From a virus: a stretch of 64,000 bases of DNA. The notes under the pieces are model-generated. The model ran no database searches, had not been told where the DNA came from, and saw nothing but the letters and a program-made list of their open reading frames with translations. A program made the position numbers and the translations under genes. Shown here one piece after another: positions 2,909 through 60,704 of this stretch (within the stretch, counting starts at the first letter, position 1; each line of letters begins with the position of its first letter). The DNA is taken from positions 6,151-70,150 of IMG/VR virus record IMGVR_UViG_3300025655_000030; one strand, given 5' to 3'.

Positions 2909-4150
2909 TTGAAAGTAACCGATACTAAAAGTTTTATCGAGAAGTCTAAGTTACTACATGGTGATAAATATGATTATAGTGATACAGTTTTTACTAAGAG
3001 TAGGGATAAAGTATCTATAAGATGTAAGAATTGTGGAGAATTATTTAATCAGAATGCAGGTAATCATTGTAACGCAGGGAACGGGTGTCCTCAATGTAGC
3101 GGTAAAATTAGTAAAAGAAGACTAAGTATCGAGGAAAGGATAAGTAATGCCAGAGATTTGCATGGCGATAAGTTTGATTATTCTGAGTGGGGTGTAAAAA
3201 CATCTAAAGAAGTTGGTAAAGTGACATGTACTAAGCATCATATTAGTTGGAATATTTCTTATGATAACCATGTAAATCAGGGTAAGGAATGTCCTTCTTG
3301 TCGGTATGAAAAGTCCTCTTTGTCAAAGAATATGGGTTACATCGAAGCTGAAAGAATAATATCCACAAAGTTTAATCATATAACTATACATGAAGACTCC
3401 TACAAATCTTTTACAACAAGTTGTAATTTTACATGTGATATACACGGTTTATTTCATAAAACACCACAGTTAGTGTCATTGAGTGTATATGGTTGTTCTG
3501 AGTGTGCCAAAGATAATGGTTCTTACGGTAATGATTCTTTATCACAAGAAGATTTTTTCAATCCTATATCTGTTAGACTCCCTCACTGCGATTTCTCTAA
3601 TTCAATTTATATTAATCAAACAAGTGAAGTAACTTTTTATTGTAATAAACATGGGAAGTATCACACCACAAAGGCTCAACACTTAAAGTTAAGTTCAAAA
3701 GGATGCGTTGATTGTAGCATAGAGTCTTCCTCTAGGAAACAGGTCGGGTTTTTAAATAATACTATTGTAGAGAGAAACAAGAGTAAATACCTAAATAAAG
3801 AAAACTTCCTATATATTGTACGCCTCCCTGATTTAAGTCATAACGTATACAAGATAGGAATGGCGTGTATACCTGTAAATAGATATTACAAACTTAAAAA
3901 AGACTTTGGTAAATTAGATATAATTAAAACTTATCCATTAGATACTTATAATTGCTTCAAGTTAGAGCAGAGTTTACATAGACTTTTCAGCGACAATAAG
4001 TACACTTTACCGAATAATAATAATATAGATGGTAGTAGGAAAAGAGGTATAAATGAACTATTCAAACTTGATAGGGAGGATATTATTAATATAGATGAAT
4101 ATATCTCTATTTACAAGTTAAATTTGTTAGGAGGAGATTATGTCATATGA
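2909..4150 (+). CDS. free-standing homing endonuclease (repeated Cys/His zinc-ribbon modules plus C-terminal GIY-YIG/T5orf172-like domain)
   Basis: Four C-x2-(C/H)...C-x2-C repeats; FLYIV..YKIG..NRY..LEQSLH..ELF; probable TTG start at 2909 after AGGGGAG (ORF open from 2876). Confidence 0.75.
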   Translation: MKVTDTKSFIEKSKLLHGDKYDYSDTVFTKSRDKVSIRCKNCGELFNQNAGNHCNAGNGCPQCSGKISKRRLSIEERISNARDLHGDKFDYSEWGVKTSKEVGKVTCTKHHISWNISYDNHVNQGKECPSCRYEKSSLSKNMGYIEAERIISTKFNHITIHEDSYKSFTTSCNFTCDIHGLFHKTPQLVSLSVYGCSECAKDNGSYGNDSLSQEDFFNPISVRLPHCDFSNSIYINQTSEVTFYCNKHGKYHTTKAQHLKLSSKGCVDCSIESSSRKQVGFLNNTIVERNKSKYLNKENFLYIVRLPDLSHNVYKIGMACIPVNRYYKLKKDFGKLDIIKTYPLDTYNCFKLEQSLHRLFSDNKYTLPNNNNIDGSRKRGINELFKLDREDIINIDEYISIYKLNLLGGDYVI

Positions 4151-5724: not shown

Positions 5725-7934
5725 ATGCACAATACCGAAAAAATAGATATAGAGAAAGCTGAATCCTCTCCTAGTCCTTCTACCACTAGACTGAAACTTG
5801 GGGAGATTGGTTCACCTAATGTTAAGACTATAGGTGGATTAATTAGAGAGGAGGCTAGGAAAGACTTGCAATTTCCAAGATGTCTTACTACATTTGATGA
5901 AATGAGGCAAGACGCCACAGTAGATGCTGGATTAACTGTTAACGAAGTATTCTTGACTAAAGCTATGATGGGGATGAAGTGGAAAGTAGGTGAATCTGGT
6001 AGTGAACTTTCAAAGAGTTATGCTGATGCACTGAACTGGAACTTTAAGAACTTTGACCAACAGACTTGGTATCAGATTATAACATCCGTTATTACATATC
6101 AACAGTATGGTTTCTCTTGGTTAGAGAAAGTCTACACTAAGAATAAAAGTAAAAGTCACCCTATCTTAAAAAATAAGATTAAGAAACTAGCCACTAGGAC
6201 ACAAAAGAGTGTTGCTAAGTGGGAGTTTAGTAAGGATAAACGGGAGTTGTTAGGGGTATGGCAAAAGCCTGAAACTTCAATAGACACGTTATTTCCTAGT
6301 GCTGTTAATATTAATAATCAGCTTGATACCTACATTCCTAGATATAAATATATGTTATTTAGTTGGGATGATAAAGGTGGTAATCCTCAAGGTAAGTCGT
6401 TATTAACAGGTTGCTTTAGGGCATATAAAGAAAAAAGTATGATAGCCTCTTATGAGGTTGTTGGTGTAAGTAAGGACATGGGTTAACTATAATCAGCCCC
6501 TTAATGAAGAAATTTATTAAGCAAATCTATCTAATTCAGTGGAAACCTCTATAGAGACAATACTGAGCCAAAGCCTTAAAGACGAAAGTATACCTATTAA
6601 TAGGAATGAGCTTTTTTAGTGTGGAAGACGGTAAACACACAGGTTAGGTGCAACGACTATCCCGCAAGGGAGTACATCACAAGCTATTGGTGGTGGAAAT
6701 GGTAGAAACCTAAACATTAAGTTGTAGGTTAAGATATAGTCTAATCTATATGGTGACATATAGCAGTTCATAAGAGAACGATTAACAATGTAGCGATTGT
6801 TAGTGAATACAAATGGGATTACTTGTCCTTCGCGTACCAACAGATATTATAAATAAAGCTGCTGAAGACCCTACTTCAGACGAAGCTAAATCACTCCAGA
6901 ACCTTCAAAAGAATGCCGCTAATGTACATGCTGGGGATCAGACTTATATCCTCTTAGGAAGCGATACGTTAGATAATGGAGGTACTTCTAAATACTCTTA
7001 TGATATAGAACTTAAGGGGATTGATGGTAGTTTGTAAATAAGCTACACTTAGTAGAAATACTATGAACAAATAACTCATTTAATTGCTGGAAACTCTCGT
7101 TAGATTTTGTATACGATACTAGGTAGTGATACACTAGCGACCCGTAAAAATTACAAAAATAGAGACAATCAGCAGGTAAGAGTCTAATATTACAGTAAAG
7201 AATTCTTGAACGCAATATTAAAATGATATTAGACTTGACTTCAACGACTATCCTGAAAGGGAGTACACTCAAGTGAGTGGAAATGGTGAGAACCTAAACA
7301 TTAAGTTGTAGGTTAAGATATAGTCTGGTCTATATAGAGATATATAGCAGTTCATAAGAGAACGGGTAGTGATTAACGACCACTATTGAACACATCGGGA
7401 AAACAATACAAAACCTCTGAATTAATCAATGAACGTAAGAAAGCTATCTTAGACACTCTAGGTGCAGGTTTCCTAAACTTAGGGAATGATGGTGTAGGTA
7501 GTTATGCCTTATCGACAGGTAAACAATCCCTACATGCTTTCTATATGGAAAGACATTTAATGTTCATCAAGTCAGTATTTGAAAATGACTTAATCCCTCA
7601 ATTAGCTGAAATTAATGGTTTAGCCTTATCAGAAGATGATATGCCTACATTAACATTTGGTGAGATTGATGAACCTGACTTAGATGTACTAAGTAAGGTC
7701 GGACAGAGGCTTGGATCTGCTGGGTTAATACCTAAAGAGAAAACCTTACTACTAGAATTCTGGAAACAGTTCGGACTAGATACTTCTGCATTAAAAGATA
7801 TGTCTCAAGAAGAATTATTTGAACTACTTACCCCTGAAACATCAAGGGCTGGGGAAAGTGGTGGTTCAAGTGGAACAGGTGGTACTCAGTCCGGTGGAGC
7901 AAGTAGCTCTTTAAATTCAGATAATGCAGCATAG
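5725..7934 (+). CDS. portal protein in three exons (5725-6483, 6816-7031, 7398-7934; ~503 aa spliced)
   Basis: Joined exons read SKDMG|GLLVLRVP and KGIDGS|GKQYKTSELI in frame; lies between TerL and protease. Confidence 0.88.
6484..6815 (+). mobile_element. group I intron (IA-like, ORF-less), portal intron 1
   Basis: Exon ends in U (GGT) pairing with IGS GCCC; P10 TAATC/GATTA; R CAACGACTATC; S AAGATATAGTC; terminal G. Confidence 0.92.
7032..7397 (+). mobile_element. group I intron (IA-like, ORF-less), portal intron 2
   Basis: Exon end GTAGT pairs with IGS GCTAC (U.G); AATTGCTGGAAA; AATCAGCAGG; R TCAACGACTATC; S AAGATATAGTC; terminal G. Confidence 0.92.
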
Positions 7935-15500: not shown

Positions 15501-17656
15501 ATGAATCAAGGTAACTTAGAAAAGTTTATTATTGACTTAGGATTTTCTGATAAGAAAGCCATAACAGGATTAAAATCTTTCTTAAAGAAAGTTGATAATA
15601 TGAAAGCTAATGTCAAAGTTAATGTTGACAAGAGTTCATTAAATAAAATATCTAAAGATATTAAGTCTGCTACTGGGTCTGTAGTAAACCCTTTAAAAAT
15701 GTCTCCTGAGATGAGTAGCCATGTAAGTAAGTTTCGTAAGAGTGAGGCTGAGAAACAATTAGCTCATGAGAAAGCCTTACATCATGAACGTAAAAGAAAT
15801 ATAGCCGCTGAGAAAGCTCAAAGGGAAAGAGCTGATAGGTTTAAGAATAGTTCATTATATCGTAGGATAGCTGATTCAGACCCATCTAGGGCAGAGAGAT
15901 ACTACCAACAAGCTAAGACTGTTAGAGGCAGTAATACACAGTTTGGGACATGGCAGACTGATATTAGAAATGCAGAGAAAGCATTAGGAACATTCAACCG
16001 AAAACTTAAACAAACAACTGTCATACAAAGAGGATTATCTGACTCTACAAGAAATATGATAAGGTCATATGCTAGTGTCTATGCTTTAGGTGCTGGAGGT
16101 ATGGCAATCAATAAGGTAGGTAGAACGTTTGAAGGTGCTGCTGCTGCTATGAAAGCTGTCAGTACTGACTCTAAGGAAGCAGAGGCTAACTTAAAGTTTT
16201 TAAAAGACGAAGCTAAAAGGTTAGGTCTTGGAGTAGGGGAATCTACTAAGAACTTTGTTAAGTTAAGAGCTGCAATAGGTGACAAAGCTAGTAATGAGGA
16301 AGCTAGGAAAGCTTTTACAAACTTATCTGAAACAGGTACAGTATTTCAGTTAAGGCCAGAGGAAATGAACAGAACGATTAAGGCTTAATGTTAGGCTCAT
16401 ACATTAGTGATAATGTAAAGAAAACTGGTTTAATTGCTGGAAAGCCCTTAGAGCTTGTAGATACTAAACAAATATGATAATATGTATTTGTGGCTTAAGA
16501 GTAATGTCTTAAGGTATAGTTATAAGTCTACAAGATTGGGTGATCAGCATCCACGTTGTCTACTAGAAAGAATTCATAAATAGAGTAGGCATCAGGATCA
16601 ACGACTATCCGCAAGGAGTAGGCTCAAGTGAGTCGAAAATCCAGCCCTCATAAGAGGTGAAGATATAGTCTCTACTTCTATGGAAACATAGAGATGCAAG
16701 TAATGTTGCTGGGTGTGATTAACGACCACATTTGAAGATAATAGGTACAACAAATGTTCAGTAAATCTGGTATTATGGCGGAAGAATTAAAACAACAACT
16801 AGGTGATGTTCTTCCTACAGCAATGGTTGCCTTAGAGAAATCTACAGGTAAAACCTCCACTGAATTATTCAAAATGATGCAGATGGGTCAATTAGGGCAA
16901 GAGTACATCATGCCTTTCTTAGATGCTATGGCAGACATGGCTAAAAAGAATGGTGCATTAGAATCTGCGTTACTCTCAACAGCTAAAGCTCAAGATAAGT
17001 TTATGACTGGTGCTGAGATAGCTGGTAACACTATTTACACATCTGGATTTGCTGAAGGATTAGGTGAACTATTCAGAAATATGACAGAGGAACTTGAAGG
17101 GTCAGAGGATGCTTTAAAGTCTCTAGGGAAAGTGTTCAGAGTATTCTTTAAAGGAGTTAGCAATCTTATTAATCTTATCACTCCAGCTTTCAGAATGTTG
17201 GCTTTAGTAATGGGTAGTGTGGTTGATGCCTTTGAGTGGTTGTTTGGTAAACAGATGGGGGACAATATACTAAGTACTGGTGTGATGGTAGGAATGTTAA
17301 TACTCAAGTTTAAATTACTGACAAAAGCAGCTAAATTATTTGGGTATGAGTTGAAAATGGCTCTATTACCTCTTACAGCCATCATGGTTATATTAGATGA
17401 GTTGTATTCTTTCATGGATGACAGTCGAACCAACAGGATTGAAGAAGTAAGTGGTATACAAGGGTGGCAATCACTTAATCCATTTCATCCTGTAAATATA
17501 TCTAATGGGGAGATAGCTATGAAGAACGCTCACCTTCAATATGCCAACAATCAACCTATAAATGTCACCGTACCAGTATCAATTGATGGTGTTAAGAAAT
17601 CAGTTGATGAACAAATGAGTGTAGTGATGGGTAACTCAATGGTAGGTAACAGATGA
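15501..17656 (+). CDS. tape measure protein in two exons (15501-16385, 16745-17656; ~598 aa spliced)
   Basis: Joined RTIKA|VQQMFSKSGIMAEELKQQLGD restores the tape-measure motif. Confidence 0.88.
16386..16744 (+). mobile_element. group I intron (IA-like, ORF-less) in tape measure gene
   Basis: Exon ends in U; TAATTGCTGGAAA; GATCAGCAT; R TCAACGACTATC; S AAGATATAGTC; terminal G restores frame. Confidence 0.9.
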
Positions 17657-58643: not shown

Positions 58644-59240
58644 TTATTCAACTCCTTTGTTGATAGGTTTAATTTTAGATAACGCATCTGATAATTCATC
58701 TTCATAATACTCTACATCACCTACCTTTACAACCTTTCTTTCCTCTCTTTTCCATAATAATTTGTGAGTAGGGTGTTTAGATGGATCTCCGCTAGTGCAT
58801 TTTAAGAAATCTATATTACTATGCGCTTGCCAAACTTCCATTATGTCAAAGTCTCTGCTATACCTATCTGTCAAATTCTCGTCAAAACTATTTAACATAC
58901 CCCATGTTTCACCAGAGTAAGTATCTCCATTAGCAGTTCCTTTGGGTACTACGCCACTCTCACCATTTCTCCCAACAATAACCATTCCTGTTTTCAAATC
59001 TGATTTAGTAAAGCTCATTTTAGTCTCCTCTTTAAGTTTAAAGTATTGTAGTTCATCCTCGCGAATGGTCATTAAATCACTGGTAAGTCCTATATTAGCC
59101 TCAACCATAGTTATTGTGAAACCATCCTTATAGTAACATTCTACATATTCCTCATAAGGAGCGAATCTCTTCATAAACTTATCTTTCGCTGCTTTATCAA
59201 CAAACACATAAATCTTACCTTCCTCTAATTTATCTAACAT
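58644..59240 (-). CDS. hypothetical protein (two-module)
   Basis: FTKSDLKTGM..DIMEV..LLWKREE module in the C-terminal half. Confidence 0.6.
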   Translation of the reverse strand: MLDKLEEGKIYVFVDKAAKDKFMKRFAPYEEYVECYYKDGFTITMVEANIGLTSDLMTIREDELQYFKLKEETKMSFTKSDLKTGMVIVGRNGESGVVPKGTANGDTYSGETWGMLNSFDENLTDRYSRDFDIMEVWQAHSNIDFLKCTSGDPSKHPTHKLLWKREERKVVKVGDVEYYEDELSDALSKIKPINKGVE

Positions 59241-59270
59241 TATATTCCCCTCTTGTTACCTAGTACCTCT

Positions 59271-59404
59271 ACTTTAACTCACCTAAACCACTATGTCAAA
59301 TATTTTATTCAAATAAATTTATCTCTACAAAAAGTACCTATTTAAGAAGTTATTTGTCCAGTTAGTGAAATAGTTCTTGACAGATTTTATATTTATGTTA
59401 AACT
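59271..59404. promoter_or_regulatory. divergent sigma70-like promoters
   Basis: - strand TTGACA-N17-TAAAGT (~59271-59299); + strand TTGACA(59377)-N16-TAAACT with extended TGn. Confidence 0.7.
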
Positions 59405-59409
59405 ATAAG

Positions 59410-59890
59410 TAAGGGTAGAGATATTATCTACTTGAAATTGTATGTTTGCGTAAAATCTTTCCATACAAGCCTAGCAATAGGTAATGCCACTAGAAAGCGT
59501 AAGTGGATAGCATCAGGGTGGATAGTACAAGTTACTATAGCTAAGAGATGCGATAGCCTGACAGGGTGTTAGCTCTGTTGAAAAGTTCTTAGCTTCTATG
59601 ATACTAACAATAATCATAGTACGTAAGCATTCTCCTAATGCAGAATGTGGAAACCTCAGTAGATACCTCAAGAAGATATATTTACTAGGAACATCATCTA
59701 TCGTCCTGTCGTAAAAGCATTGCGCTTTCCTACTTTTTTTTGAGTAGGTTGACAGTAGGATAGTTGTGTTCCTAGTAAAGTTTCCTAAGAAGATATATTA
59801 AAAGAATATTAGTAGATTTACTCTTAGTAGATATACTTCTAATAGAGTACTTTTAAAAGAGTACTCTAAGGGATATAATCATCCCTTAAG
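59410..59890 (+). ncRNA. candidate large structured non-coding RNA
   Basis: No ORF in the track; own promoter; more than 10 helices; three long-range pairings; terminal hairpins. Confidence 0.6.
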
Positions 59891-59908
59891 GTACATTTAA
59901 TAATTAAT

Positions 59909-60157
59909 TTAGTTATTATACTTATCTAACCAACTAAACAGTAATTCAAATGGTTTTACTACAGTGTAAATAAATAATTTACCTAGTACATTAAGTGGTA
60001 TGAATATAAACCACAATAAACATATTAACTTTATCTCAGTTTCTTCCCAGTAATATAAATCAAAACTCCTGATTATAAAATTCTTACCTATAGTGTAAAA
60101 GAAACACACTCCCACAAACCACACAATAACACTCACAATAATATAAATATTCATCAA
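59909..60157 (-). CDS. small membrane protein
   Basis: Hydrophobic ORF; GAGGAG RBS. Confidence 0.5.
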   Translation of the reverse strand: MMNIYIIVSVIVWFVGVCFFYTIGKNFIIRSFDLYYWEETEIKLICLLWFIFIPLNVLGKLFIYTVVKPFELLFSWLDKYNN

Positions 60158-60612: not shown

Positions 60613-60704
60613 ATAATACTTCTACTATTCCCTATTGTCAATCTCATTTAAAATTAATTTATTTTAAAATAATTCCTTGACAGGGATTTCATTTCGTATA
60701 TAAT
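60613..60704. promoter_or_regulatory. divergent sigma70-like promoters at the strand switch
   Basis: - strand TTGACA-N17-TATTAT; + strand TTGACA-N16-TATAAT; AT-rich sequence between. Confidence 0.8.

What the first reader, a model, noticed from the sequence alone, without database searches (positions are those of the whole stretch)
59377..59890. Candidate novel ~480-nt multi-pseudoknotted phage ncRNA with its own promoter, oriented against the flanking genes
Seen in sequence: the largest ORF-free gap in the window. A + strand promoter (TTGACA 59377, TGnTAAACT) points into it although the flanking genes are on the - strand. It is packed with helices: GTAGA/TCTAC (59415-31), TTGTATG/CATACAA (59438-68), GCCTA-GCAA-TAGGT (GNRA loop, 59469-82), CCACT/AGTGG (59487-506), AGCTAAGA/TCTTAGCT (59539-94) enclosing ACAGGGT/GCTCTGT, CTATGAT/ATCATAG (59596-619) and CATTCT/AGAATG (59628-47). 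A perfect 13-bp stem TTTACTAGGAACA/TGTTCCTAGTAAA (59681-779) closes a multibranch domain. Loops also pair at long range: ATGTTTGCGTA (59442-52) with TACGTAAGCAT (59620-30), 11 bp with two G.U; AAAGCGTAA (59494-502) with TTGCGCTTT (59720-28), 9 bp with one G.U; CGATAG (59551-56) with CTATCG (59698-703). Some of these compete with local stems. G.U pairs that work only on the + strand favour RNA over DNA cruciforms. It lacks the group I core motifs found in the four introns and shows no tRNA cloverleaf. Inference: a large structured phage RNA, in the general class of GOLLD/ROOL-like RNAs but not identified as either, or a structured primer RNA for replication.
Basis: partly seen in the sequence, partly recalled or inferred. 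Interest (0 to 1): 0.9.

Follow-up and report, generated by a model that had tools for sequence, protein, structure and literature searches.

The report
New pseudoknotted RNA gene of Alteromonas phages
The gap holds a real gene for a large, intricately folded non-coding RNA that a small group of marine phages carries, often in two copies, and that matches no described RNA family, so its role in infection is an open and testable question.

Summary
Window 59377-59890 (+) encodes a ~390-nt conserved RNA core plus a variable tail behind its own sigma-70 promoter. I found 10 copies in 7 records: five related ~70-94 kb myovirus records plus two small contigs. One named record is the cultured Alteromonas phage vB_AmeM_PT11-V22, where the stretch is unannotated. 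Three of the five genomes carry two diverged paralogues; the window genome's second copy lies outside the window. Twelve helices recur in all four clades with compensatory changes, and shuffle and slide controls never reached the observed counts. Two pseudoknots are well supported: a 5-bp kissing pair between the H1 and H3 loops (four variants) and a 5-bp helix crossing H6 (five variants, 10 of 10 copies). A third is possible. His three long-range pairings exist only in the window copy. Rfam 15 gives no match, there is no conserved ORF, and the promoter sits on the RNA strand in all 10 copies. Function is unknown. My best reading is a stand-alone, early, trans-acting structured RNA. An origin transcript or an operon leader remain possible. 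No RNA-seq run was available, so expression is untested.

The parts
59366..59376 (+). Conserved box GTGAAATAGTT just upstream of the -35 hexamer (UP-like part of a recurrent phage promoter class)
   Evidence: Identical box at three promoters of G000 (both RNA copies and a small-protein gene). Similar boxes precede many small early-type genes in G002-G004.
59377..59404 (+). Sigma-70-type promoter of the RNA: TTGACA, 16 nt, TG-n-TAAACT
   Evidence: A -35/-10 pair at the same distance from the conserved RNA start is present in 10 of 10 copies, read by eye.
59407..59799 (+). Conserved RNA core (393 nt here; 387-432 nt in the other copies). The true 5' end, probably about 59410-59412, and the 3' end have not been mapped.
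   Evidence: nhmmer E 1e-41 to 1e-124 between copies; alignments A4, A10 and A12.
59415..59431 (+). H0 hairpin GTAGA/TCTAC, lineage-specific
   Evidence: Present in the window copy only.
59438..59468 (+). H1 hairpin, 7 bp with a 17-nt loop
   Evidence: 6-9 bp in 10 of 10 copies; all 6 common pairs show both-sided changes.
59469..59482 (+). H2 hairpin GCCTA-GCAA-TAGGT, optional
   Evidence: A weaker counterpart exists in the a-type copies. None is evident by eye in b-type, c-type and G000a sequences.
59487..59506 (+). H3 hairpin CCACT/AGTGG with a 10-nt loop
   Evidence: 10 of 10 copies. The strands are fully swapped (GTGGT/GCCAC) in the b-type.
59457..59497 (+). PK1: kissing pair of the last 5 nt of the H1 loop (CTTTC 59457-61) with nt 2-6 of the H3 loop (GAAAG 59493-97)
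   Evidence: Four variants: CUUUC/GAAAG, CUGUC/GACAG, CAUUG/CAAUG, CUAUC/GAUAG. 97.8% of cells are paired and 3 of 5 pairs changed on both sides. G002b has 4 of 5.
59510..59551 (+). PKa: GCATC (59510-14) pairs with GATGC (59547-51). It encloses H4 and the 5' strand of H6, so it crosses H6 as an H-type pseudoknot.
   Evidence: Exactly 5 bp in 10 of 10 copies, five variants. Per-pair counts on 8 copies are.
59522..59538 (+). H4 hairpin ATAGTA/TACTAT. In the a- and b-types it carries an inserted hairpin H5 with a conserved CAUCGY loop.
   Evidence: H5 is present in 6 of 10 copies.
59539..59594 (+). H6 (8 bp), closing a junction with the invariant strands GCGAUAGCCUG and UGAAAAG
   Evidence: All 7 common pairs changed on both sides.
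59559..59580 (+). H7 hairpin ACAGGGT/GCTCTGT
   Evidence: 10 of 10 copies. In two seawater runs the neighbouring changes 59574 T>C and 59575 C>T turn G-C + G-U into G-U + G-C.
59596..59619 (+). H8 hairpin CTATGAT/ATCATAG. Its loop (CTAACA 59604-09) may kiss the H7 loop (TGTTAG 59567-72): candidate PK2.
   Evidence: H8 is in 10 of 10 copies. H7 loop x H8 loop ranks first of all segment pairs compared (sorted by minimum, then mean): minimum 4, mean 5.2 Watson-Crick bp. The register differs in the b-type and in G002a/G003a.
59627..59654 (+). H9 hairpin with loop CCUAAUGC, followed by the conserved GGAAAC
   Evidence: 10 of 10 copies; 5 of 5 common pairs changed on both sides.
59666..59682 (+). 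R1: first copy of the direct repeat CCTCAAGAAGATATATT
   Evidence: CTCAAGAAGATA is invariant in 10 of 10 copies. The 3' part of the repeat changes in step with R2.
59681..59779 (+). 3' domain: long stem H10 (13-14 bp) closing H11 (59698-59711 / 59750-59763), H12 (59714-28) and H13 (59729-48)
   Evidence: The same architecture is present in 10 of 10 copies with different sequences.
59784..59799 (+). R2: second copy of the repeat CCTAAGAAGATATATT
   Evidence: The four AAGAAGATA 9-mers of G000 all lie in the two RNA genes.
59800..59890 (+). Variable A+U-rich tail with small hairpins and the palindrome AGAGTACTCT. The GC-rich hairpin 59866-89 looks like the terminator of the converging - strand genes.
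   Evidence: No canonical + strand terminator was found in any copy.
59271..59299 (-). Divergent - strand promoter-like site for the 198-aa gene and the replication-gene block
   Evidence: TTGACA, 17 nt, TAAAGT.

Best explanation
The gap is a stand-alone gene for a ~400-480-nt non-coding RNA, the founding example of an undescribed family confined so far to Myoalterovirus-like Alteromonas phages. Host sigma-70 RNA polymerase starts it at a strong early-type promoter beside a divergent transcription junction. Shown: the RNA folds into a 5' domain (H1 and H3 locked by a 5-bp loop-loop kiss), a central pseudoknotted domain (PKa crossing H6, with H4, H7, H8 and H9 and the invariant strands GCGAUAGCCUG, UGAAAAG and GGAAAC), and a 3' domain (H10-H13). 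The 3' domain is flanked by two copies of a 15-17-nt purine-rich repeat (CUNAAGAAGAUA...). Inferred: it acts in trans during early infection as a compact folded RNA. The conserved single-stranded strands and the twin repeats would then be the working surfaces, binding a protein or nucleic-acid partner as a scaffold or decoy. What it binds is unknown.
For: 10 copies in 7 records. All major helices are kept through compensatory changes. In the 5' domain 93.5% of cells are paired against 74.6% in shuffles, with a covariation score of 0.541 against 0.219 (0 of 500 shuffles). In the central domain the figures are 84.9% against 58.9%, with 23 of 26 pairs changed on both sides (0 of 500; slid controls 39-53%). 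On curated stems, 48 of 58 common pairs changed on both sides against 27.8 +/- 2.8 in shuffles. PK1 has four variants. PKa has 5 bp in 10 of 10 copies and five variants. Strand: a promoter lies upstream on the RNA strand in 10 of 10 copies; 62 G-U pairs among 541 pairs of the distinct stems; stems score 689.5 on + against 618 on -. No ORF is conserved: the longest is 18-52 aa, with shifting place and strand. Independent unit: in the window it converges on the downstream genes. In at least five other loci a separate sigma-70 promoter lies 130-260 nt after R2 and before the next gene. Sequence conservation falls away after R2. Precedent: abundant large ncRNAs of lytic phages such as the ~800-nt ICP1 transcript (PMC7567579, passages read).
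Against: No transcript has been seen, so neither the ends nor the existence of the RNA is shown directly. No canonical intrinsic terminator follows any copy. In the V22-type genome an HNH gene starts 48 nt after the tail, so read-through into downstream genes is likely there. The a-copy sits at the cumulative GC-skew minimum, which is also the strand switch, in G001, G002 and G003; this fits an origin equally well. The family is small, with about 5-6 independent lineages. The covariation statistics therefore rest on related sequences, and part of the alignments was fitted to the structure. No partner protein recurs beside both loci.
Confidence: 0.55

Rival explanations
1. Origin-associated transcript. 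The promoter and its structured RNA prime or activate DNA replication at one or two origins, as ColE1 RNA II or the T4 origin transcripts do (comparison from recalled knowledge). The repeats and the A+T-rich palindromic tail would serve as DNA sites.
For: Both loci lie at divergent junctions. The a-copy lies within about 100 nt of the cumulative GC-skew minimum in G001, G002 and G003. The b-locus lies near the primase/helicase and polymerase genes. The four AAGAAGATA 9-mers of G000 occur only in these two loci. The tail is A+T-rich and palindromic.
Against: The GC-skew minimum coincides with the strand switch and so does not identify an origin on its own. Selection keeps base pairs, G-U pairs and two pseudoknots across ~390 nt, including between the repeats. 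That is far more than a primer needs. G003 and G004, both complete genomes, have only one copy.
Confidence: 0.15
2. Cis-acting leader. The RNA modifies the polymerase that made it, or senses a signal, to control read-through into the downstream operon. This would resemble the paired putL/putR or nutL/nutR elements of lambdoid phages, or a very large riboswitch (comparison from recalled knowledge).
For: There are two copies per genome, each directly behind a strong promoter at the head of a rightward gene block. No terminator follows. A segment after R1 can pair either with R1 or with R2, as mutually exclusive structures, in 9 of 10 copies (and my reading of the sequences).
Against: In the window the RNA runs head-on into three converging genes. 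Downstream genes mostly have their own promoters. The downstream genes differ between loci. The switch segment is missing in the window copy. The size and number of pseudoknots far exceed known antiterminator RNAs.
Confidence: 0.15
3. Precursor that is cut at the two repeats, releasing the H10-H13 domain and the 5' and central domains as separate RNAs. Alternatively, the 3' domain is a domesticated inverted-repeat insertion flanked by a target duplication.
For: Identical 15-20-nt direct repeats bracket a domain closed by a long inverted repeat in 10 of 10 copies. The repeat's 3' part changes in step in both copies: AUAUAUU in G000, AUAAUC elsewhere.
Against: A passive target duplication would not stay more conserved than the rest of the RNA across four clades. 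No nuclease gene recurs beside the loci.
Confidence: 0.1
4. A DNA-level element only (cruciforms or protein-binding repeats), with no functional RNA.
For: The - strand folds as well as the + strand in the single-sequence test.
Against: There are loop-loop and crossing helices with compensatory changes, G-U pairs on one strand, and a promoter conserved in 10 of 10 copies.
Confidence: 0.03

Closest known systems
GOLLD (RF01998) and ROOL (RF03087) large ornate RNAs of phages and prophages
   Same: A large (over 400 nt), multi-helix, pseudoknotted RNA of unknown function carried by phages. In 3 of 10 loci a tRNA-Met gene lies about 1 kb downstream, recalling the tRNA neighbourhood of GOLLD and ROOL (PMC7567579 passage; PMC12286853 abstract only).
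   Different: No match to either covariance model at E up to 10 in the window stretch, or up to 0.1 in 9 homologous loci. It is shorter, found in marine gammaproteobacterial myoviruses, has two paralogues per genome, and has its own sigma-70 promoter at a divergent junction. Oligomerisation, shown for GOLLD and ROOL by cryo-EM, is untested.
The ~800-nt abundant non-coding transcript of Vibrio phage ICP1
   Same: A large transcript from an ORF-free gap of a lytic marine or estuarine myovirus, with no tRNA cluster (PMC7567579, passages read).
   Different: No sequence similarity. blastn in distant mode against 50,697 phage records found nothing for the window copy, and only phage V22 for an a-type copy. 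No conserved structure has been reported for the ICP1 RNA in the passages I read.
phi29 pRNA (recalled, not checked with a tool)
   Same: Two loops of one RNA are complementary and covary between relatives. In pRNA that pairing proved to be intermolecular and builds a ring.
   Different: pRNA is about 120-170 nt and serves a phi29-type packaging motor. These phages have an ordinary large terminase. Whether PK1 forms within or between molecules is unknown.
HK022 putL/putR and lambda nutL/nutR (recalled)
   Same: Two copies per genome, each just behind an early promoter at the head of diverging transcription units.
   Different: Those elements are 30-70 nt and lie in mRNA leaders. This one is about 400 nt and pseudoknotted. 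In the window it faces converging genes, and separate promoters follow it elsewhere.

Membership tests
Any Rfam 15 family (4227 models) | Score at or above the family's gathering threshold | tested here: not met
   Window: only three group I introns, all elsewhere. Stretch 59100-60100 at E up to 10: best hit RT-14 at 23.2 bits against a threshold of 48.1. Nine homologous loci at E up to 0.1: tRNAs downstream, one abiF near-hit downstream, and one sub-threshold miRNA-model match on the opposite strand of the G002a copy at 30.8 bits against 119.
GOLLD / ROOL | Match to the RF01998 or RF03087 covariance model | tested here: not met
   Neither family appears.
GOLLD / ROOL | Homo-oligomeric RNA-only assembly | not testable with these tools
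   Needs SEC-MALS, native gels or cryo-EM.
Group I intron | P3-P9 catalytic core (RF00028) and flanking exons | tested here: not met
   RF00028 finds three introns elsewhere in the window but nothing here at E up to 10. No split gene flanks the stretch.
tRNA / tmRNA | Cloverleaf or tmRNA fold | tested here: not met
   ARAGORN finds none in the window and none inside the RNA in 8 loci.
Protein-coding gene | An ORF conserved in place and frame | tested here: not met
   The longest ORFs are 18-52 aa, on changing strands and at changing positions. The c-type maximum is 21 aa.
Structured RNA gene (generic) | Helices kept by compensatory changes beyond shuffle and slide controls | tested here: met
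Structured RNA gene (generic) | A transcript of the predicted strand and size | not testable with these tools
   No RNA run was available.
OMEGA / bridge / retron-type guide RNAs | An adjacent TnpB/IscB, IS110 recombinase or reverse transcriptase gene | tested here: not met
   Neighbours are small unknown proteins, methylases, an HNH endonuclease and an HTH protein.

The most novel reading that the evidence does not exclude
This is a new class of ornate phage RNA whose conserved pseudoknotted core is a machine in its own right: a ribozyme or a self-assembling RNA. In all three genomes with two paralogues, the two copies carry different PK1 codes (G000: CAUUG/CAAUG against CUUUC/GAAAG; G001 and G002: CUUUC/GAAAG against CUGUC/GACAG). 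That would keep two assemblies orthogonal within one cell.
Probability: 0.15. Interest if true: 0.9.

Novelty: categorically new. Interest (0 to 1): 0.8.

Why it matters
Large RNAs with several pseudoknots and many invariant unpaired strands are rare. When understood, they have usually turned out to be ribozymes, RNP cores or self-assembling particles. This family has no detectable relative in Rfam. The authors of the one cultured member, Alteromonas phage V22, screened it with Rfam-based tools and reported no ncRNA (PMC7567586 is not the id; the correct id is PMC7289586, passages read). The RNA comes with its own promoter and, in three of five genomes, with a diverged paralogue that serves as a built-in comparative control. 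Because a culturable phage-host pair exists, expression, structure probing, deletion and partner capture are all directly feasible. 'New' is claimed here at the level of RNA family and architecture. Whether the function is new cannot yet be said.

Tried and rejected
Rfam at the gathering and at permissive thresholds gave nothing. blastn near and distant with the window copy against 50,697 phage records gave no match.

DNA-pattern scans that added no members:
- Searches returned 0 loci.
- (genome contigs) returned 5 loci, 0 true.
- One search returned 85 stretches, 0 new.
- One search returned 13 stretches, 0 new.
- Of the 16 loci, 13 were chance matches in coding DNA.

A pair of AAGAAGATA motifs in G003 at 48.8-48.9 kb, with the right spacing, proved to be coding sequence and not a second copy. 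Model R2 found nothing credible in Pseudoalteromonas phages H101 and HM1; the best hit was E 0.155 at 18 bits.

I considered a GC-GAUA-GC mini-hairpin inside GCGAUAGCC. I set it aside because its first GC is used by the better-supported PKa.

Pairing of the H9 loop with H5 or H12 was looked at by eye and is not consistent across clades. No complement of the R motif occurs in the 70 kb of G000. Hfq, CsrA or anti-Shine-Dalgarno binding of the R motif was considered from recalled motifs and none fits well.

Pfam on 20 neighbouring proteins gave no RNA-binding or nuclease partner above threshold. One Mut7-C hit at E 0.009 is below the cut-off.

Sequencing runs: no RNA holder was listed, so expression could not be examined. 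Contigs from three seawater or unlabelled metagenome runs cover parts of the stretch with few differences; run X9 laid nothing.

Literature searches (listings and abstracts only, except passages of PMC7567579 and PMC7289586) returned no description of this RNA.

The MAFFT and CM alignments keep the b- and c-type rows partly out of register in H1, H6 and H8. The official percentages therefore understate pairing. My curated stems were chosen as paired, so only their both-sided-change counts are informative.
Full report
WHAT IS IN THE WINDOW. Window 59241-59908 lies between two blocks of - strand genes: a 198-aa gene ending its block at 59240, and an 82-aa gene whose stop is at 59909. It is the largest stretch without an ORF of 60 aa or more (668 nt). 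The ORFs inside it are 46, 38 and 52 aa. A + strand promoter reads into it: TTGACA 59377-82, 16 nt, TG-n-TAAACT. A - strand promoter-like site at 59299-59271 diverges from it. Promoter-like sites as a class are not enriched in this A+T-rich DNA (15 found, 12.6 +/- 3.5 expected), so a single site proves little. As RNA, both strands fold much better than dinucleotide shuffles: z -5.0 on +, -6.6 on -, 0 of 100 shuffles each. Stability therefore shows structure but not strand.

THE WINDOW IS A PHAGE. It is 64 kb of a 70,150-nt virus record, handle G000, estimated 75% complete. It encodes a myovirus: tail sheath, baseplate, major head protein, large terminase, primase/helicase, DNA polymerase and ribonucleotide reductase. 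Three group I introns are found by Rfam.

HOMOLOGUES. The same genome holds a second, diverged copy at G000 3145-3650, outside the window. Pattern scans built from blocks shared by the two copies, followed by nhmmer, gave 10 copies in 7 records:
- G000: copies a and b. The window copy is b.
- G001 (87 kb): copies a and b.
- G002 (94 kb, terminal repeats): copies a and b.
- G003 (92.8 kb): copy a only.
- G004 (93.6 kb, terminal repeats): one copy, c-type.
- G005 (5-kb fragment): c-type.
- Metagenome contig L264: a-type.

The five large records are related phages sharing 44-93 of 109-156 predicted proteins pairwise. An a-type copy queried against the phage collection matches only Alteromonas phage vB_AmeM_PT11-V22, genus Myoalterovirus, at 86388-86911. 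Nothing is annotated there. The paper describing that phage says that screening with Rfam-based tools identified no ncRNA (PMC7289586, passages read). A covariance model of the central domain finds nothing in the nearest phages by terminase similarity, Pseudoalteromonas phages H101 and HM1.

STRUCTURE. Four clades are available: G000 a and b; a-type; b-type; c-type. Twelve helices recur at the same places with different sequences:
- H1 and H3.
- H4, which carries an inserted hairpin H5 in 6 of 10 copies.
- H6, H7, H8 and H9.
- The long stem H10, closing H11, H12 and H13.

On the model-fitted alignment of the 5' domain (19 pairs), 93.5% of cells are standard pairs against 74.6% after shuffling. 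The covariation score is 0.541 against 0.219 (0 of 500 shuffles reach it). Sliding the partners by 1-3 columns gives 32-49%.

On the central domain (26 pairs) the figures are 84.9% against 58.9%. Of the 26 pairs, 23 changed on both sides, against 16.2 in shuffles (0 of 500). Slid controls give 39-53%. Some b- and c-type rows are out of register in those alignments, which lowers the observed values.

On stems located in each sequence separately, 48 of 58 common pairs show both-sided changes against 27.8 +/- 2.8 in shuffles (0 of 500). There the pairing itself is by construction, so only the change counts carry weight. H12 and H13 are short, and individually no better than shuffled windows in several copies. 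They rest on their constant position.

PSEUDOKNOTS. PK1 pairs the last five loop nucleotides of H1 with nucleotides 2-6 of the H3 loop. Four versions occur: CUUUC/GAAAG (a-type and the window copy), CUGUC/GACAG (G001b; G002b keeps 4 of 5), CAUUG/CAAUG (G000a) and CUAUC/GAUAG (c-type). In the counts, 97.8% of cells are paired and 3 of 5 pairs changed on both sides.

PKa pairs the five nucleotides GCNNN just after H3 with NNNGC just before GAUAGCC. It forms exactly 5 bp in 10 of 10 copies, with five versions: GCAUC/GAUGC, GCGUU/AACGC, GCAGC/GUUGC, GCACU/GGUGC and GCAAU/GUUGC (per-pair counts on 8 copies). It encloses the 5' strand of H6 while H6's 3' strand lies beyond it, so the two helices cross.

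A third contact between the H7 and H8 loops ranks first when all pairs of 18 unpaired segments are sorted by minimum and then mean run length (minimum 4, mean 5.2 Watson-Crick bp). It covaries among G000b (UGUUAG/CUAACA), G000a (UGUUUAGA/UCUAAACA) and G001a (UCUUAG/CUAAGA). It shifts register in the b-type and in G002a/G003a, so I call it a candidate only.

They shrink to 3-6 bp in the other nine copies.

STRAND AND CODING. Every copy has a -35/-10 pair at a fixed distance upstream on the strand that gives these helices. The helices contain 62 G-U pairs among 541 pairs of the distinct stems. The same search scores 689.5 on the + strand and 618 on the - strand. In contigs of two seawater runs, the adjacent changes 59574 T>C and 59575 C>T convert G-C + G-U into G-U + G-C in H7. 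Other differences fall in loops, make a G-U pair, or open one terminal or one internal pair. No ORF is conserved.

CONTEXT. The a- and c-type copies occupy one syntenic locus. It is a divergent junction between a leftward block (methylase, PhoH-like and small genes) and the rightward block leading to HNH endonuclease, terminase and structural genes. The b copies occupy a second junction at the early/replication region near the primase/helicase.

The promoter belongs to a recurrent class with an A-rich upstream box. That class also precedes many small genes of the early-type region. The window arrangement differs from G001b: there the orthologue of the 198-aa gene lies downstream on the RNA's strand, whereas here it diverges from it and the RNA converges on three small genes. 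The RNA gene has thus been kept through a rearrangement.

In at least five loci a further sigma-70 promoter follows the RNA by 130-260 nt, before the next gene. No copy is followed by a canonical terminator. In the V22 record an HNH gene starts 48 nt after the tail. No protein family recurs next to both loci.

THE REPEATS. CUCAAGAAGAUA (R1) and CUAAGAAGAUA (R2) are invariant in all copies and flank the H10 domain. Their 3' extensions differ between G000 (AUAUAUU) and the rest (AUAAUC), but always agree within a copy. In G000 the 9-mer occurs nowhere else on either strand.

In nine copies a short segment after R1 is complementary to the repeat. It can pair either locally with R1 or with R2 as an extension of H10. 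The window copy lacks it, leaving both repeats unpaired. I could neither confirm nor exclude that.

INTERPRETATION. Shown: a conserved, non-coding, pseudoknotted fold with a conserved promoter on its strand. Inferred: a stand-alone early RNA acting in trans. The grounds are its convergent placement in the window, the separate downstream promoters, the end of conservation after R2, and a complexity typical of RNAs that work as folded objects. I give this 0.55.

An origin transcript (0.15) fits the junction and GC-skew position and the restricted repeats, but not the extent of structural selection. A cis-acting leader (0.15) fits two copies behind early promoters with no terminator, but not the window's geometry. 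Processing at the repeats (0.1) is compatible with any of these. A purely DNA element (0.03) is contradicted by the loop-loop and crossing helices.

COMPARISON WITH KNOWN RNAS AND NOVELTY. The RNA resembles GOLLD and ROOL in being large, ornate, phage-borne and of unknown function, and in 3 of 10 loci a tRNA-Met gene lies about 1 kb downstream. It fails their models and differs in host, size, promoter and copy number. It is not a group I intron, tRNA or tmRNA, and it is not a guide RNA next to a nuclease, recombinase or reverse transcriptase. Four literature searches found no description. I therefore rate it a new RNA family and architecture. Its function may or may not be new. Limits: about five or six independent lineages, no expression data, unmapped ends, and supplementary files not seen.

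Noticed in passing
G000:C1:3145-3650 (= L002:1545-2050), outside the window: Second, diverged paralogue of the RNA in the same genome, with the same promoter box. A third copy of that promoter (L002:2150-2200) drives a 64-aa gene just downstream.
   Followed up: yes
L272:428-503, L298:431-506, L264:808-883 (all on the RNA's strand): A tRNA-Met (CAT) gene lies about 1 kb downstream of the RNA in the G001a, G004c and L264 loci. Rfam also gives a second, weaker tRNA hit in L272. ARAGORN found none in the five other loci scanned (G000a, G001b, G002a, G002b, G003a).
   Followed up: partly
L298:517-554 (-): Near-threshold match to the abiF RNA motif (35 bits against a gathering score of 37) right beside the tRNA of G004.
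   Followed up: no
window 6474-6763, 7022-7347, 16375-16693: Three group I introns reach the Rfam threshold.
   Followed up: no
G001 about 15643, G002 about 76296, G003 about 86315: The cumulative GC-skew minimum falls within about 100 nt of the a-copy promoter in these three genomes. In G000 it is at 67217, about 1.2 kb beyond the window copy. These points are also the main strand switches.
   Followed up: partly
window 59850-59860; L002:1997-2008; NC_048847 86866-86877: The palindrome (A)AGAGTACTCT(T) recurs in the tail of three copies, and in G000 and G003 is found nowhere else. It could be an operator or an RNA hairpin.
   Followed up: partly
L285:8091-8330 (+): A 79-aa protein with sub-threshold Cro/C1-type HTH matches sits immediately upstream of the G002 b copy on the same strand. 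Its orthologue exists in G003, which has no b copy.
   Followed up: no
window 60677-60704 (+) and 60641-60613 (-): Near-perfect divergent sigma-70 promoters (12 of 12 and 11 of 12 matches) lie between the 78-aa gene and the TM2-domain gene. This is another early-type junction 1 kb from the RNA.
   Followed up: no
window 59250-59950 in runs X5, X6 and X7: Metagenome contigs (X5 and X6 labelled seawater, X7 unlabelled) carry near-identical pieces of both paralogues. One strain has a 28-nt deletion at 59832 and a 3-nt deletion in the H13 loop.
   Followed up: partly
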